DNA of 64,000 nucleotides from Bacteroidota bacterium. Lineage in GTDB: Bacteria > Bacteroidota > Bacteroidia > UKL13-3. The translations under genes and the position numbers were made by a program. Each line of letters begins with the position of its first letter. Positions within the stretch are counted from its first letter, which is position 1. The DNA lies in NCBI GenBank assembly GCA_947464275.1, contig CANHVU010000008.1:17082-81081 (forward strand). The letters are read 5' to 3'. Shown here piece by piece: positions 1-57,030 of the stretch. The notes below the pieces were generated by a model that did no database searches, was not told the origin of the DNA, and saw only the letters and a list, made by a program, of their open reading frames with translations.

Positions 1-404
1 AACTCTAAAAATGGTTTTTCATCCATTTTATTTGCATCAACCAAATCAGAATAGAAACGATAAGAAATACCATTCGTTAAAAGACCAAATTTTGCTTTAG
101 ATACATGAAAATATCTTAGAATTTGACCATCGTGAACATTTAGATTTTGAGCCCAATGCTTACACTCAATTAGTATTGTTGGATTTCCATCTTTGAAAAT
201 TGCATAATCTATTTTTTCGCCCTTTTTAGTCCCAATATCTGTTATGTATTCTGGAACTACTTCAATTGGATTAAAAACATCGTAGCCTAATACTTGTAGA
301 AATGGCATTATGAAAGCATTTTTCGTTGCTTCTTCTGTTTGAATTTGATCTTTCAATTTGGCAACTCTGTCACCCAGTTGTTTGATTTGGTCTTTAAAGT
401 CCAT
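1..404 (-). CDS. Type I restriction enzyme HsdR N-terminal-domain (PD-(D/E)xK) protein, partial (runs off the window)
   Basis: Not in the ORF track. Manual translation from ATG at 404 gives MDFKDQIKQLGDRVAKLKDQIQTEEATKNAFIMPFLQVLGYDVFNPIEVVPEY...GEKIDYAI...ILIECK...LTNGISYRFYSDL, which has the D..IECK and LTNG motifs of HSDR_N. Confidence 0.85.
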   Translation of the reverse strand, partial: MDFKDQIKQLGDRVAKLKDQIQTEEATKNAFIMPFLQVLGYDVFNPIEVVPEYITDIGTKKGEKIDYAIFKDGNPTILIECKHWAQNLNVHDGQILRYFHVSKAKFGLLTNGISYRFYSDLVDANKMDEKPFLE

Positions 405-451: not shown

Positions 452-730
452 CTACTTTTGGCTAAAAATTTTACAACAACAAGAAGTTGGCGATTTCAAA
501 GCACTAAACTCTTTGCCGTTACTTAACTTGATACGTTGATAAAAATTTGATTTAAGCACTGAACCCGATTTTTTCCAAACGCCTATTAGCGGTTCGGCTT
601 TCTTTTTCCAGTGTTTCCATTCTTCCAATTTAATGTCTTTAACAATCGAGTCATTTGTGAACTCGATATACAATATCTTACCTTTTTGATTGTCAATATT
701 CCAATTATTGCTTGAAAATGCTTCATTATG
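452..730 (-). pseudogene. Probable gene remnant whose 5' part is replaced by the palindromic repeat array
   Basis: The frame of ORF 452..673 stays open upstream (NEAFSSNNWNIDNQKGKILYIEFTND) and runs into the first half-repeat at 719-741. No family recognised. Confidence 0.4.
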
Positions 731-1730
731 TTCGCAATGACTTTTGCTACTGTAATTTCATAATATTAAAAAAGTGCGGGAACAATCGTCATTGCGAGGA
801 ACGAAGCAATCTCAAGTTATGTGTAATACTCGCTTTAGATTGCTTCGCTACATTCGCAATGACGTTTGCTGATGTAATTTCATAATATTAAAAAAGTGCG
901 GGAACAATCGTCATTGCGAGGTACGAAGCAATCTCAAGTTATGTGTAATACTCGCTTTAGATTGCTTCACTACATTCGCAATGACGTTTGCTGATGTAAT
1001 TTCTCGTACTAAAAAAAGTTCGGAAACTATCGTCATTGCGAGGTACGATACAATCTCAAGTTATGTGAGATTATTACTCGCTTGAGATTACTTCACTACG
1101 TTCGCAATGACGTTTGCTGATGTAATTTCGTCATTGCGAGGAACGAAGCAATCTCAAGTTATGTAAGGCGTTTGTTTTTAAAATTCTATTGTTTCATACA
1201 AATCAATCCATTCTTTATTCATTGAATCAATTAATATTATTTTACTATTTCTCGAGCCAGATTTAATTCTCTTTTCTTCCTTTATTGCTTCTTCTATTGT
1301 ACTGAAATAATTATAATAAACTAATTTAGAAATATTATACTTTGCTGTAAACGATTGAGGAAAATAGTGTGTTTTATGTTGCCAGATTCTTTGTTGCAAA
1401 TTAGATGTAATACCTGTATATAAAACTGAATTATCTTTATTAGTTAAAATATAAACAAATCCACCCATAGTTATTAATTAGTCTTTTTTAGGAACTAAAT
1501 AAACCTTTTTATCACAAATTTCCAATTACTCGCTTGAGATTGCTTCACTATGTTCGCAATGACGTTTGTTGGTGTAATTTCATTGTAACTCGTACTAAAA
1601 AAGTGCGGGAACTATCGTCATTGCGAGGTACGAAGCAATCTAAAGTTATGTATGATAATTGTTAGCTTGAGATTGCTGGTTATTGCTCTCACATTAAATG
1701 TTCGCAATGACGTTTGTTGGTGTAATTTCA
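719..1730. repeat. Tandem array of CGTC-tagged palindromic (REP/BIME-like) doublets
   Basis: Left arms CGTCATTGCGAGGwACGAAGCAATCT at 787, 909, 1031, 1129 and 1616. Right arms AGATTGCTTC..TTCGCAATGACG end at 741 (partial), 864, 986, 1112, 1564 and 1712. The first units have a 122-bp period and conserved linkers. Confidence 0.95.
1178..1468 (-). CDS. Small stand-alone GIY-YIG nuclease
   Basis: GFVYIL...LYTGITSNL..RI.QHK...FT.KYN..KLVYY...AI..EKRIK, with the Tyr, Arg, His and Glu catalytic positions present; 96 aa. Confidence 0.92.
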   Translation of the reverse strand: MGGFVYILTNKDNSVLYTGITSNLQQRIWQHKTHYFPQSFTAKYNISKLVYYNYFSTIEEAIKEEKRIKSGSRNSKIILIDSMNKEWIDLYETIEF

Positions 1731-1849: not shown

Positions 1850-3466
1850 ATGATTAAATTTTTATCCCAATACACCACCAAACAAGCATGGCTGCAGGCA
1901 ATTCTGCTTTTTGTATGTTTTGGAATTGGGTTTTATAATTTCCCGTTAAGTTTAGTACAAACCAATTTTAGCTATATGCCTGGCGATTTAGGCGATGCAA
2001 GGTTTATAAACTTTGTACTGGAACATGGCTATCAATATCTAATAGGCAATCAACCTTCGTTTTACGATGCTACCTTTTTTTATCCTGCCAAAAACACTTT
2101 GGCTTTATCGGATAATATGGTTGGAACATTACCCATTTATGCCATTTATAGAGCCTTACATTTTGATAGAGAAACAGCTTATCAATGTTGGTGGTTAAGC
2201 ATATTTGTACTCAATTATTTTATAGCATTTTATTGTTTTTATAAAATTACCAAAAATAGTTATGTATCTATTTTAGGAGCCTACTTGTTTACTTTTTCCA
2301 TGATCATGTTTGGGCAATGCAATTTTACCCAACTCAATATCCGTTTTTTATTACCGGTTATTATTTTAGCAGCTTATAATTTAGCTACTCTTGCCAAACC
2401 TAAATACTATTATTATTTGGTGTTAGCCGTTGCTTTTCAGTTTGTATTAGGCGTTTATTATGCCTTCCTTTCAGTATATTTATTGGTGATATTTTTTGCT
2501 TGTTATGCCCTCATTACACGCAAATTTGATTTTATAATTCAGCTGTTTTATAATAAAATGCAAAGCATAAAAACCATTGCTTACACTTTAGCCGTTATTG
2601 GTTTATTGGCGCTTTACATGCAAAATTATATTGAAGTTTCTAAGCACGTTAATCTGCATAAATTTAGCGAAGTATTACACCTAATGCCAACTTTTACAAG
2701 CTACACTTTAGCTAACGATGCTAGCACTTGGGCCTTTACCAATAAATATGGGAAAAACTTATTAGCTGATAGATGGTGGTTAAACGAGTTTTTTATGGGA
2801 GTATTTTCTATTGGTTTATTAATTAGCTACGCAATTATTACTTTTAAAAACAAAGATTCAAATAAATTTTTAGTAGTTGCTATTGGTATGGCTATCGTTT
2901 GCAGTTTATTGTTTGCCAATAAATACAGTGTTTTAGCCATTTTTTATTACTTACCCGGCTTTGGAAGTTTATCGGTATTGGTTAGGGTAATTACAGTAAT
3001 TTTTACTCTAATAGTATTTGTCAATGTGCTATTTTTAAATGACCTATTTTTAAAATACAAAAAATGGTGTTTGTTTATCTTTATAAGTTTGTTTGCCTTA
3101 TTGTTTATCGATAATCATGTAGATGCAAGCAAACTAACCAGAACAAAAAAAGAAACCATTTTAAACAGATACAAAACCATAGAAACACAAATTGGCAATC
3201 ATAAAAAACCTATTTTAGCCATAGTAAGCGAAGGCGATGATTGGAAAAACTTCAAATTTCATTTAGATGCAGCATTGTATGCGCAAGCCCATCAAATGAA
3301 GAGCATTAACGGCTATTCGAGCAATGCTCCGCAAAATTTTGGAGGCTTTTGGGAAAAACATAACCGAAAAACCTTGAATGATTGGTGTATTTATAATAAT
3401 ATTGACACCAGTAAAATAATAATAATTGATAATATAAACCTTGTAACCTCGGTTAATAACGAATAA
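1850..3466 (+). CDS. Polytopic membrane protein, probable GT-C fold glycosyltransferase (YfhO-like)
   Basis: About 12 hydrophobic segments, an acidic GDLGD motif in the first loop, and C-terminal INGYS. Confidence 0.6.
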   Translation: MIKFLSQYTTKQAWLQAILLFVCFGIGFYNFPLSLVQTNFSYMPGDLGDARFINFVLEHGYQYLIGNQPSFYDATFFYPAKNTLALSDNMVGTLPIYAIYRALHFDRETAYQCWWLSIFVLNYFIAFYCFYKITKNSYVSILGAYLFTFSMIMFGQCNFTQLNIRFLLPVIILAAYNLATLAKPKYYYYLVLAVAFQFVLGVYYAFLSVYLLVIFFACYALITRKFDFIIQLFYNKMQSIKTIAYTLAVIGLLALYMQNYIEVSKHVNLHKFSEVLHLMPTFTSYTLANDASTWAFTNKYGKNLLADRWWLNEFFMGVFSIGLLISYAIITFKNKDSNKFLVVAIGMAIVCSLLFANKYSVLAIFYYLPGFGSLSVLVRVITVIFTLIVFVNVLFLNDLFLKYKKWCLFIFISLFALLFIDNHVDASKLTRTKKETILNRYKTIETQIGNHKKPILAIVSEGDDWKNFKFHLDAALYAQAHQMKSINGYSSNAPQNFGGFWEKHNRKTLNDWCIYNNIDTSKIIIIDNINLVTSVNNE

Positions 3467-25760: not shown

Positions 25761-25881
25761 TTGCATAAAAGGTCATGTTGTAAACATCTTCCTTGAATAT
25801 GAGTTTGATTGCTAATGGAAAGGTGCTTTTAAACAAGGAATTCCGCTTTGGCGGAACTACGGAATGACCCAATATTATGTC

Positions 25882-25940
25882 CGTCATTGCGAGGCACGAA
25901 GCAATCTCGCACTTAGATTGCTTCGTGCCTCGCAATGACG
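25882..25940. repeat. Solo perfect CGTC palindrome of the same family as the 719-1730 array
   Basis: CGTCATTGCGAGGCACGAAGCAATCT-cgcactt-AGATTGCTTCGTGCCTCGCAATGACG; perfect 26-bp arms. Confidence 0.95.
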
Positions 25941-56358: not shown

Positions 56359-57030
56359 TTGACAAAAGTGAAACGTTACAATCCAAACATCCATCATAGA
56401 AAATCCATTCGATTAAAAGGCTACGATTACTCTCGTAAAGGATTATATTTTGTTACCATTTGTTGTAAAAACAGGGCCTGTTTATTTGGTAAAATTGAAA
56501 ATGGTAAAATGTTTTTAAATGAAGCAGGTGTAATGATTGAAAAATGGTATTTTGAATTAGAAAATAAATTCCTAGATATTAAATGCCAAGAAATGATTGT
56601 GATGCCAAATCATATACATTTCATAATTGAAAATACGGGCGATATTGCTGCCGTGCAGGCAAACCGAAATATTCGCCCTGAAGATGAAGACGTACGGGCG
56701 AACCTAGGTGTTCGCCCCGATGATATCGGGCAGACACATAGGTCTGCCCCAACAGAAACATCTGAACAAATTTTTGGTGAACATATTGGGTCGCCATTGC
56801 ATAGGGTTATTCAATGGTTTAAAACAATGACTACCAACGAATATATTCGAGGTGTAAAAAATTTAGGTTGGGAACCTTTTTACAAAAAATTATGGCAACG
56901 GAATTATTGGGAACATATTATTCGTAATGAAAATTCATATCAAAACATTTCAAATTATATCATCAATAATCCTTCAAAATGGAATGAAGATGTTTTGAAT
57001 AGAGAAAAGCTGAACACTAAAAGCTTTTAA
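56359..57030 (+). mobile_element. REP-associated tyrosine transposase (RAYT, Y1/HUH) with internal REP hairpins
   Basis: HRKSIRLKGYDYS...YFVTIC, MPNHIHFII (HUH), WQRNYWEHIIR, YIINNP. Confidence 0.9.
56653..56800. repeat. Four GTA(G)-type REP hairpins inside the RAYT ORF
   Basis: Forward at 56653-56679 and 56692-56718 (GTACGGGCGAAC..GTTCGCCC); reverse at 56728-56753 (GGGCAGAC..GTCTGCCCCAAC) and 56776-56800. Confidence 0.8.

What the first reader, a model, noticed from the sequence alone, without database searches (positions are those of the whole stretch)
719..1730. GIY-YIG nuclease gene inside the loop of one unit of its own palindrome array: candidate non-RAYT REP-mobilising system
Seen: the array unit is left arm (CGTCATTGCGAGGwACGAAGCAATCT), loop (AAGTTATGT..TACTCGCTT), right arm (AGATTGCTTC..CGCAATGACG) and linker, repeating at 122, 122 and 98 bp. 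In the fourth unit the left arm (1129) is followed by the first half of the loop (AAGTTATGT), then the whole GIY-YIG gene with its upstream region, then the second half of the loop (ATTACTCGCTTG) and the right arm (to 1564). The gene is therefore bracketed by terminal inverted repeats, and the other units look like internal deletion derivatives. Known: GTAG-type REPs are tied to RAYT HUH transposases, and CGTC-tagged palindromes are a described repeat class. I know of no demonstrated enzyme for the CGTC class. Inference: the 96-aa nuclease is the cognate nickase or mobiliser, giving an autonomous element plus MITE-like copies.
Basis: partly seen in the sequence, partly recalled or inferred. 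Interest (0 to 1): 0.85.

Follow-up and report, generated by a model that had tools for sequence, protein, structure and literature searches.

The report
Ssn nuclease gene within hairpin repeats
A small DNA-cutting enzyme gene sits between two inverted copies of the short hairpin repeat it most likely recognises; this enzyme-repeat pairing was published in 2025 for other bacteria, so this is a new example of a known system, not a new kind.

Summary
A 96-aa GIY-YIG gene (window 1178-1468, minus strand) lies between the two arms of one unit of a five-unit palindrome array (about 703-1730). The enzyme-repeat link has been in print since 2025: Chenal et al. (PMC11893778) showed that 94-aa single-domain GIY-YIG proteins (SsnA, family Ssn) bind CGTCAT-tagged hairpin repeats (NTS/SRM) as single-stranded DNA and cut just upstream. 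They also noted the IS-like "repeat-gene-repeat" layout.

Our protein aligns end to end with Neisseria SsnA (41-46% identity, Y6 and Y17 in place).

New here:
- This repeat variant fails the published search motif.
- The host looks like a Bacteroidota member.
- The module and a gene-less repeat pair are present or absent as discrete units among close relatives.

That fits mobility, but mobilisation by the nuclease is not shown. A hydrolytic nuclease with oppositely oriented sites does not fit the RAYT or IS200 mechanism. Verdict: new member of a known kind, moderate interest.

The parts
1178..1468 (-). ssn-like gene: 96-aa single-domain GIY-YIG nuclease (Y6, Y17, E65)
   Evidence: ORF. PF01541 E 1.4e-14. 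41-46% identity over 90-91 aa to the 94-aa Neisseria SsnA-type proteins. dN/dS 0.06-0.24 among six close copies (15 pairs).
1129..1158 (+). SRM-like arm, subtype A1 (CGTC-ATTGC-GAGGAACGAA-GCAAT-CT), downstream of the gene, GTCAT end facing outward
   Evidence: Same layout as the published NTS.
1533..1564 (-). SRM-like arm, subtype A2 (CGTC-ATTGC-GAACATAGTGAA-GCAAT-CT on the minus strand), upstream of the gene, GTCAT end facing outward
1469..1532 (-). 64-nt upstream region of the gene inside the unit (presumed promoter and ribosome-binding region)
   Evidence: Conserved in five gene-bearing units (alignment A1). No function tested.
787..864 (.). gene-less unit 1 (A1 arm, loop, A2 arm)
909..986 (.). 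gene-less unit 2
   Evidence: ssDNA fold -24.7 and -25.2 kcal/mol.
1031..1112 (.). gene-less unit 3. Its loop GTTATGT-GAGATT-ATTACTCG matches both junctions of the gene cassette.
1616..1712 (.). gene-less unit 5 (longer loop). It is the only unit kept at this site in relative G004.
728..745 (-). partial right arm at the left edge of the array
   Evidence: family D5.
25772..25940 (.). second SRM cluster in the window: two short class-B SRMs and one class-A inverted pair (25883-25940). The pair is present in G000 and G005 and absent with intact flanks in G004 and G008.

Best explanation
This is an Ssn-family system: a single-domain GIY-YIG endonuclease gene embedded between two inverted copies of its own Ssn-related motif (SRM), inside a BIME-like tandem array of SRM pairs, in a genome that looks like Bacteroidota.

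Shown here:
- The protein is a full-length homologue of the 94-aa Neisseria SsnA type and keeps the catalytic tyrosines and glutamate.
- Each arm has the NTS/SRM layout: (C)GTC, a 5-bp stem ATTGC, a variable loop, GCAAT, then C.
- All five Ssn-like copies in the genome are bracketed by inverted SRMs with the GTCAT ends outward.
- Different paralogues carry different SRM variants.
- The gene is under purifying selection.
- The SRM-gene-SRM module and a gene-less SRM pair are gained or lost as discrete units among close relatives.

Inferred from the published enzymology of SsnA (not tested here): the protein binds the SRM only in single-stranded DNA, in one orientation, and cuts a few nucleotides 5' of the GTCAT end. 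For this module that would place the cuts just outside the module, one on each strand.

The biological outcome is open. The options are restriction of incoming or exposed ssDNA, as in Neisseria transformation, and/or break-induced copying that spreads the repeats and the gene.
For: - Pfam GIY-YIG, E 1.4e-14.
- tblastn of our protein against 8 loci of Neisseria-genus genomes: 41-46% identity over 90-91 aa, E 5e-18 to 1e-23. The printed ORFs are 94 aa from the Met, with Y6, Y17 and E64 as the paper describes. 4 of the 8 loci hold exact NTS copies.
- Sphingopyxis homologues (best 44% identity, E 5.6e-20): 4 of 8 loci have SRMs that pass the published motif. One of them, L152, is flanked by the same ATTGC-class repeat as ours.
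- Own genome: 5 Ssn-like copies, all bracketed by inverted SRMs. 4 of 5 have a perfect-stem SRM within 100 bp, against 0 of 12 Y1-transposase-like genes within 1 kb.
- Relatives: TCATTGCGA (one mismatch allowed) occurs within 250 bp of 12 of 12 homologues of 48% identity or more, against 3 of 17 more distant ones.
- Strict SRM scan: SRMs on both sides in 14 of 35 loci, on at least one side in 22 of 35, and in 0 of the 7 most distant homologues, several of which look UPF0213-like to me.
- Genomes with 10 or more class-A repeats: 17 of 18 have a homologue. Genomes with fewer than 10: 8 of 23. The genomes are related, so the Fisher p of 1e-4 overstates the case.
- dN/dS 0.06-0.24.
- Published enzymology and the published association figures (71% of homologues with at least one SRM nearby, 42% on both sides): PMC11893778, sections read.
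Against: - The arms do not match the published degenerate SRM motif. The whole genome gives 1 hit, and the ATTGC stem has G where the motif needs Y.
- A single arm's own mini-hairpin is weak: -2.4 and -3.1 kcal/mol, z about 0. NTS has a GC-rich 8-9-bp stem. In ssDNA the two arms of a gene-less unit would pair with each other instead, which could hide the site.
- 12 relatives carry 10 or more class-A repeats without a homologue of 48% identity or more. Repeat persistence therefore does not need the cognate gene in every genome, or other paralogues cross-react, or the gene is unassembled.
- The CDD cd10448 assignment and any enzymatic activity could not be tested.
- I could not fetch a named N. 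meningitidis SsnA. The Neisseria proteins used come from unnamed genus-level genomes and were recognised by length, residues and NTS flanks.
Confidence: 0.85

Rival explanations
1. The SRM-ssn-SRM module is an autonomous mobile element whose nuclease mobilises it. The gene-less SRM pairs are its non-autonomous (MITE-like) derivatives, mobilised in trans. This adds a claim to the best explanation rather than replacing it.
For: - Homology between the G000 copy and the copies in G017 and G004 is limited to window 1128-1570, arm to arm. Their flanks map to other G000 contigs.
- The G004 copy sits in an array orthologous to G000 C12:69100-69470, which lacks the gene-bearing unit (4 units against 3).
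- Upstream of the same membrane-protein gene, G005 has the array with the gene, G004 has one gene-less unit, and G009 and G008 have no class-A unit.
- A 58-bp gene-less pair at window 25883-25940 is present in G000 and G005 but absent, with conserved flanks, in G004 and G008.
- Gene-less loops keep both junction sequences of the gene cassette.
- The published Discussion raises the same idea.
Against: - GIY-YIG enzymes are hydrolytic nucleases with no known strand-transfer chemistry (established knowledge of the superfamily).
- The published enzyme cuts only one orientation of the motif. With inverted arms, each strand carries only one cuttable site, so an IS200/IS605-type excision of one strand is not available (plus anatomy).
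- No target-site duplication or sharp empty-site junction was seen.
- The unit gain and loss inside arrays can be explained by unequal recombination between tandem units.
- The two copies in G000 differ at dS 0.33, so there has been no recent burst.
- Single arms and direct arrays exist, which a TIR-element model does not predict.
- 12 relatives keep 10 or more repeats without a close gene copy.
Confidence: 0.3
2. Homing-type selfish gene. The SRM pairs are older host or selfish repeats. The ssn gene is a passenger that inserted between two SRMs. It spreads by cutting exposed ssDNA at SRMs, followed by repair copied from a gene-bearing unit.
For: - Filled and empty units differ by one clean cassette between GTTATGT and ATTACTCG.
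- The divergent paralogue on C39 sits at the equivalent place of a different repeat subfamily, next to empty 91-bp units.
- Repeats greatly outnumber genes: about 80 SRM-like elements against 5 gene copies.
Against: - The recognition sites stay intact beside the gene, whereas classical homing destroys the site.
- There are only 2 close copies per genome, and they have diverged.
- No case of a filled versus an empty version of the same unit at one orthologous position was found. The differences seen involve whole units.
Confidence: 0.12
3. The repeats are REP-like elements moved by Y1 (RAYT or IS200-like) transposases in this genome, and the GIY-YIG gene is only a neighbour.
For: The genome has 13 matches to PF01797 Y1_Tnp, three of them strong (E 1e-25 to 2e-27).
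Against: - 0 of 12 Y1-like loci have a perfect SRM within 1 kb. The nearest distances are 1.3 to 86 kb, or none on the contig. By contrast 4 of 5 Ssn-like genes have one within 100 bp.
- The same gene-repeat pairing recurs in Neisseria-genus, Sphingopyxis and a gammaproteobacterial MAG.
Confidence: 0.04

Closest known systems
Ssn nucleases with NTS/SRM repeats (SsnA of Neisseria meningitidis; Chenal et al. 2025, Nat Commun 16:2388, PMC11893778)
   Same: - Single-domain GIY-YIG of about 95 aa, with Y6, Y17 and the Glu conserved.
- 41-46% identity to the 94-aa Neisseria-genus proteins.
- Repeat layout: (C)GTCAT tag, short palindrome, then C.
- The gene is flanked by the repeats, and tens of copies are dispersed and clustered in intergenic DNA.
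   Different: - The stem is ATTGC/GCAAT (5 bp) with a 10-16-nt loop, not ATTCCCGCG/GCGGGAAT. It fails the published degenerate motif.
- The arms are mostly paired head to head into long hairpins and stacked in tandem arrays with linkers.
- One genome carries several paralogues, each with its own repeat variant.
- The host looks like Bacteroidota. The words 'Bacteroid' and 'Flavobacter' are absent from the paper's main text. Its supplements could not be read.
- Enzyme activity is untested here.
RAYT (REP-associated tyrosine transposase) with REP/BIME
   Same: - One gene flanked by inverted copies of a short hairpin repeat that is also dispersed, often as inverted pairs and mosaic clusters.
- Activity on single-stranded DNA hairpins.
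   Different: - The enzyme is a hydrolytic GIY-YIG nuclease, not an HUH Y1 transposase.
- The repeat tag is (C)GTCAT, not GTAG (the GTAG tag is recalled, not tested).
- Y1-like genes of this genome are not next to the repeats.
IS200/IS605 elements and their gene-less derivatives
   Same: - Subterminal hairpins recognised as ssDNA.
- Gene-bearing and gene-less versions.
   Different: - In IS200/IS605 both end hairpins lie on the same strand and the enzyme forms covalent intermediates (recalled).
- Here the two sites are on opposite strands and the enzyme class has no known strand-transfer step.
GIY-YIG homing endonucleases (I-TevI type)
   Same: - GIY-YIG catalytic domain.
- Selfish-gene-like distribution.
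   Different: - No DNA-binding domain: 96 aa in all.
- Not in an intron or intein.
- The recognition site stays intact beside the gene.
UPF0213 / YhbQ-type small GIY-YIG proteins (PDB 1zg2, 1ywl)
   Same: Stand-alone GIY-YIG domain of about 90-107 aa.
   Different: - Only weak similarity: E 0.0013 and 0.77.
- The 91-aa protein of this type in N. lactamica was not found with our protein at E 0.01 and has no NTS in its locus.

Membership tests
Ssn nuclease family (Chenal et al. 2025) | Single-domain GIY-YIG protein of about 94-100 aa with no extra DNA-binding domain | tested here: met
   96-aa ORF. PF01541 covers residues 3-74, and no other domain passes its cut-off except the related T5orf172 over the same stretch.
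Ssn nuclease family (Chenal et al. 2025) | Full-length homology to SsnA, with the residues whose mutation abolishes cutting (Y6, Y17, E64) | tested here: met
   41-46% identity over 90-91 aa to 8 Neisseria-genus proteins, E 5e-18 to 1e-23. Y6 and Y17 are at the same positions, and the Glu is at 65 after a 1-aa shift. They were recognised as SsnA-type by length (94 aa), residues and NTS flanks.
Ssn nuclease family (Chenal et al. 2025) | Gene flanked by hairpin repeats with an oriented 5' (C)GTCAT tag and a C after the palindrome | tested here: met
   Arms at 1129-1158 (+) and 1533-1564 (-). The same holds for the four other copies in the genome.
Ssn nuclease family (Chenal et al. 2025) | Repeats match the published degenerate SRM search motif | tested here: not met
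   The arm fails the motif, and the whole genome gives 1 hit. This motif is a search tool of that paper, not a biological definition. The same ATTGC-class repeat flanks a Sphingopyxis homologue.
Ssn nuclease family (Chenal et al. 2025) | Assignment to CDD family cd10448 | not testable with these tools
   No CDD search is on hand.
Ssn nuclease family (Chenal et al. 2025) | Site-specific cutting of ssDNA only, a few nt upstream of the repeat | not testable with these tools
   Needs purified protein and oligonucleotides.
RAYT/REP system | HUH Y1 transposase gene flanked by the repeats | tested here: not met
   The flanked gene is GIY-YIG. 0 of 12 Y1_Tnp-like loci have an SRM within 1 kb.
IS element with MITE derivatives | Terminal inverted repeats bounding a discrete unit | tested here: met
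   Inter-genome homology ends at the outer ends of the arms, window 1128-1570.
IS element with MITE derivatives | Target-site duplication or a precise empty site | tested here: not met
   No duplication was seen at the filled/empty comparison of window 25883-25940. The junctions are blurred by AT-rich divergence. There is no precise empty site at the main locus.
IS element with MITE derivatives | An encoded enzyme able to join DNA | not testable with these tools
   No strand-transfer activity is known for GIY-YIG nucleases (established knowledge). Untested for this protein.

The most novel reading that the evidence does not exclude
The SRM-ssn-SRM module is a self-propagating element of a kind not yet demonstrated. 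A 96-aa hydrolytic GIY-YIG ssDNA nuclease nicks outside each of two oppositely oriented hairpin sites. Host repair or replication restart then copies the module, or gene-less SRM pairs, to new places. Over time this builds REP/BIME-like arrays without any HUH transposase. Different paralogues would each drive their own repeat variant in one genome.
Probability: 0.25. Interest if true: 0.75.

Novelty: new member of a known kind. Interest (0 to 1): 0.35.

Why it matters
The main claim, that a small GIY-YIG nuclease is the partner of CGTCAT-tagged hairpin repeats, was already established experimentally in 2025. The finding therefore does not open a new field. Three things are still useful.

1. 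It shows that the published search motif misses a whole repeat variant, the ATTGC stem. In one search this variant was found in 28 of 41 genomes of this class sampled, and it also flanks a homologue in one alphaproteobacterium. Published counts of repeat-bearing genomes may therefore be too low.

2. This genome holds several nuclease-repeat pairs side by side, which makes it a natural test bed for specificity.

3. The locus offers gene-bearing and gene-less units, plus presence/absence differences among close relatives. These are the material needed to test the open question the published paper only raises: whether Ssn nucleases spread their own repeats.

Tried and rejected
- Literature searches for GIY-YIG with palindromic/Bacteroidetes, COG2827 and miniature inverted-repeat gave nothing relevant. 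The search with 'repetitive extragenic palindrom' found the key paper. Searches for SsnA and for hairpin/flanked/ssDNA/transpos found no follow-up work.
- A literal search for the repeat core gave 23 papers. The 10 listed all looked like unrelated topics by title and abstract; the other 13 were not seen.
- Rfam at E up to 1 gave only four sub-threshold microRNA and snoRNA look-alikes, so an RNA gene is rejected.
- No terminator-like site lies at any unit, so a terminator role is not supported.
- PDB sequence search found only UPF0213 structures, at E 0.0013 and 0.77. NCBIfam gave nothing above cut-off.
- The published SRM motif gave 1 hit in the genome.
- A loose 'GTC + any 5-bp hairpin + C' definition is not enriched overall: 212 hits against 226-259 in five mononucleotide block shuffles. 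Only five GC-containing stem classes stand out (80 elements), so I counted only those.
- N. lactamica NS19 and N. mucosa hold exact NTS copies, but no Ssn homologue was found there with our protein or with PF01541. Only a UPF0213-like 91-aa gene and larger GIY-YIG proteins turned up. I then reached SsnA-type genes through a genus-wide search.
- Only 2 of 120 NTS-holding 8-kb loci encode a homologue. This is expected for dispersed repeats and is not used as evidence.
- The empty site for the G017 copy could not be resolved, because its flanks map to two different G000 contigs.
- No structure prediction, complex prediction, large protein search or read mapping was run. They would not have changed the verdict.
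- The paper's supplementary data (homologue lists, the 29 genomes used for the motif) could not be read. They may already include Bacteroidota or the ATTGC variant.
Full report
**What is in the sequence**

Window 703-1730 holds a tandem array of five palindromic units plus a partial one.
- Left arms (CGTCATTGCGAGGWACGAAGCAATCT) start at 787, 909, 1031, 1129 and 1616, with spacing 122, 122, 98 and 487.
- Right arms end at 864, 986, 1112, 1564 and 1712.
- In the fourth unit the arms (1129-1158 and 1533-1564) are separated by a 96-aa ORF on the minus strand (1178-1468) and its 64-nt upstream region.
- Unit 3 has the same loop ends (GTTATGT ... ATTACTCG) with 6 nt in place of the gene cassette.
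- The ORF is a GIY-YIG domain (PF01541, E 1.4e-14, residues 3-74).
- A gene-less unit folds as single-stranded DNA at about -25 kcal/mol (z -6.5 and -7.4).
- The core pattern occurs 44 times in the genome, against 0 for the reversed pattern.

**The rest of the genome**

The window is contig C8:17082-81081 of a 3.40-Mb, 32% GC assembly. It has 108 matches to the T9SS sorting domain PF18962. From my own knowledge that points to Bacteroidota.

tblastn finds five Ssn-like copies:
- the one in the finding;
- a 92%-identical copy 8.5 kb upstream (C8:9778-10062);
- a 57% copy (C39:22885-23166);
- a 39% copy (C14:83754-84008);
- a fragment with stop codons (C2:794-955).

All five lie between two inverted hairpin repeats with the GTCAT ends outward. 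The C39 copy sits in a different subfamily of the repeat, beside 91-bp gene-less units that run to the contig end. The C14 and C2 copies are bracketed by short variants such as GTCATTCCGTAGGAATC. The second C8 copy has both of its arms damaged.

Perfect-stem elements number 80 in five stem classes: ATTGC 46, ATTCC 14, ATGCT 10, ATGCC 6, ACTGC 4. A looser definition is not enriched over shuffles (212 against 226-259), so only these classes are counted. Arms also occur singly and in direct arrays. The arm is therefore the basic element, not the palindrome.

**What is already known**

A literature search led to Chenal et al. 2025 (PMC11893778). I read its Results, Discussion and one Methods section.
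- SsnA of N. meningitidis is a 94-aa single-domain GIY-YIG protein of CDD family cd10448.
- It binds the repeat NTS (CGTCATTCCCGCGMAVGCGGGAATCYRG) only as single-stranded DNA and only in one orientation. It cuts a few nucleotides upstream.
- The mutations Y6A, Y17A and E64A abolish cutting.
- Homologues from three other species cut their own repeats.
- 71% of homologue genes have at least one related motif (SRM) nearby, and 42% have one on both sides.
- The Discussion notes that NTS-ssnA-NTS looks like an insertion sequence. It compares it with IS200/IS605 and RAYT/REP/BIME.

**Membership**

I could not fetch a named N. meningitidis SsnA. From an NTS-flanked homologue in a gammaproteobacterial MAG (L113) I then searched 41 genomes of the Neisseria genus. 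12 of them have a match.

The printed ORFs are 94 aa from the Met, with Y6, Y17 and E64. 4 of the 8 loci fetched hold exact NTS copies. Our protein aligns to them from residue 1 or 5 to residue 91 or 94, at 41-46% identity and E 5e-18 to 1e-23. Y6 and Y17 are in place and the Glu is at position 65.

UPF0213-type small GIY-YIG proteins are much further away: PDB 1zg2 at E 0.0013, and the N. lactamica 91-aa protein was not found at E 0.01.

Sphingopyxis witflariensis has nine matches, best 44% identity. 4 of its 8 loci carry SRMs that pass the published motif. One locus is flanked by the same ATTGC-class repeat as ours.

The arm has the NTS layout: GTC, stem, loop, stem, C. Across relatives the layout reads GTC-ATTGC-GA-[variable inner hairpin]-GAA-GCAAT-C.

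One test fails. The published degenerate motif does not match the arm and finds 1 site in the whole genome, because the stem has G where the motif asks for a pyrimidine. I treat that as a limit of the search motif, not as a failure of membership.

**Association across relatives**

- 25 of 41 related genomes have a homologue at E 1e-5 or better.
- The 9-mer TCATTGCGA (one mismatch allowed) lies within 250 bp of 12 of 12 homologues with 48% identity or more, and of 3 of 17 more distant ones.
- A strict scan finds SRMs on both sides in 14 of 35 loci and on at least one side in 22 of 35. It finds none in the 7 most distant homologues, several of which look UPF0213-like to me. The strict scan misses imperfect arms such as those of the second C8 copy.
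- More distant paralogues carry other variants, such as GTCATGCTGAGGAACGAAGCATC and GTCATTCNGNAGGAATC. Protein clade and repeat variant therefore tend to go together, but not one to one.
- The class-A pattern is present in 28 of 41 genomes. Of the 18 genomes with 10 or more copies, 17 have a homologue. Of the 23 with fewer, 8 do. The genomes are related, so the Fisher p of 1e-4 overstates the case.
- Against a strict dependence, 12 genomes have 10 or more class-A repeats without a homologue of 48% identity or more.
- The genome also has 13 Y1-transposase-like matches, but none of the 12 loci has an SRM within 1 kb.

**Evidence bearing on mobility**

- Five gene-bearing units (two in G000, one each in G005, G017 and G004) align from arm to arm.
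- The G017 and G004 copies share only window 1128-1570 with G000. Their flanks map to other G000 contigs.
- The G004 copy lies in an array orthologous to G000 C12:69100-69470, which has three units and no gene-bearing one, against four in G004.
- Upstream of the orthologous membrane-protein gene, G005 has the array with the gene, G004 keeps one gene-less unit, G009 has a short class-B repeat instead, and G008 has none.
- A 58-bp gene-less pair at window 25883-25940 is present in G000 and G005. It is absent, with well-conserved flanks, in G004 and G008.
- The units are thus gained or lost as discrete pieces on a short time scale.
- I saw no target-site duplication. The changes inside arrays could come from unequal recombination. 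The two G000 copies differ at dS 0.33, so there has been no recent burst.
- The gene is under purifying selection (dN/dS 0.06-0.24, 15 pairs).

**Mechanism**

The part I hold with high confidence (0.85) is that this is an Ssn nuclease with its cognate repeats. By homology it would bind the arm in single-stranded DNA and cut just 5' of GTCAT.

Both arms point outward, so the two predicted cuts lie just outside the module, on opposite strands. The published enzyme does not cut the reverse strand. A single-strand 'peel and paste' excision of the IS200/IS605 type is therefore not available, and GIY-YIG enzymes have no known joining chemistry. If the nuclease spreads the repeats, it would have to do so through host repair or replication restart after a nick. 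I give that 0.25-0.3.

A further oddity concerns structure. A single arm's own hairpin is weak (-2.4 and -3.1 kcal/mol, z about 0). Two arms of one unit pair strongly with each other. Pairing could therefore mask the site, which is worth testing.

**Verdict**

The enzyme-repeat link is right but already published. The mobiliser claim is open, with some comparative support.

I rate this a new member of a known kind. It has a repeat variant outside the published search motif, several nuclease-repeat pairs in one genome, and a Bacteroidota-like host. Interest 0.35.

Noticed in passing
window 3-404 (-): ORF running off the window start, with type I restriction HsdR N-terminal domains (PF04313 E 4.5e-16, PF13588 E 5.8e-10). 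The left flank of the array, including this gene, has no counterpart next to the array in the closest relative G005.
   Followed up: partly
window 452-673 (-) and 1850-3466 (+): A 73-aa ORF and a 538-aa ORF flank the array. The 538-aa product looks like a hydrophobic membrane protein by eye. Neither has a Pfam match at E 0.01.
   Followed up: no
G000 C39:23255-23515: The contig ends inside the 91-bp repeat array next to the 57%-identical paralogue. The assembly breaks in these arrays, so repeat and gene counts from draft genomes are lower bounds.
   Followed up: no
G000 C8:9733-10145 (L026): The second close copy has both flanking arms damaged. The outer half of the left arm is deleted, and the right arm reads ATCAT instead of GTCAT. 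Intact gene-less units lie on either side.
   Followed up: partly
L004 1350-1450 and 1900-2000; G000 C12:69200-69400: The arrays are mosaics. Class-A units alternate with linkers that hold a short class-B repeat and a conserved AAGTGCGGGAAC box. One unit is collapsed to CGTCATTGC..GCAATGACG, apparently by deletion between the two GCAAT stems.
   Followed up: partly
G000 C3:26900-26960, C17:3050-3340, C8:109520-109560: Another palindrome (..CCGATAGCTATCGG..) recurs beside solitary SRM arms. Its nature is unknown.
   Followed up: no
L050 (Neisseria lactamica NS19), L093 (Neisseria mucosa): These genomes hold exact NTS copies, but no Ssn homologue was found with our protein or with PF01541. Only a UPF0213-like 91-aa gene and larger GIY-YIG proteins turned up.
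   Followed up: partly
G027 (same class, different family): 113 copies of the class-A pattern, the most among the 41 genomes searched. Many are head-to-head pairs of two different loop types. The genome has two homologues, at 61% and 48% identity.
   Followed up: no
window 56794-56970 (C8:73875-74051): Weak Y1_Tnp-like match (E 0.0086; 26.8 bits with its neighbours in the frame) in a 230-aa open frame, far from any SRM.
   Followed up: no
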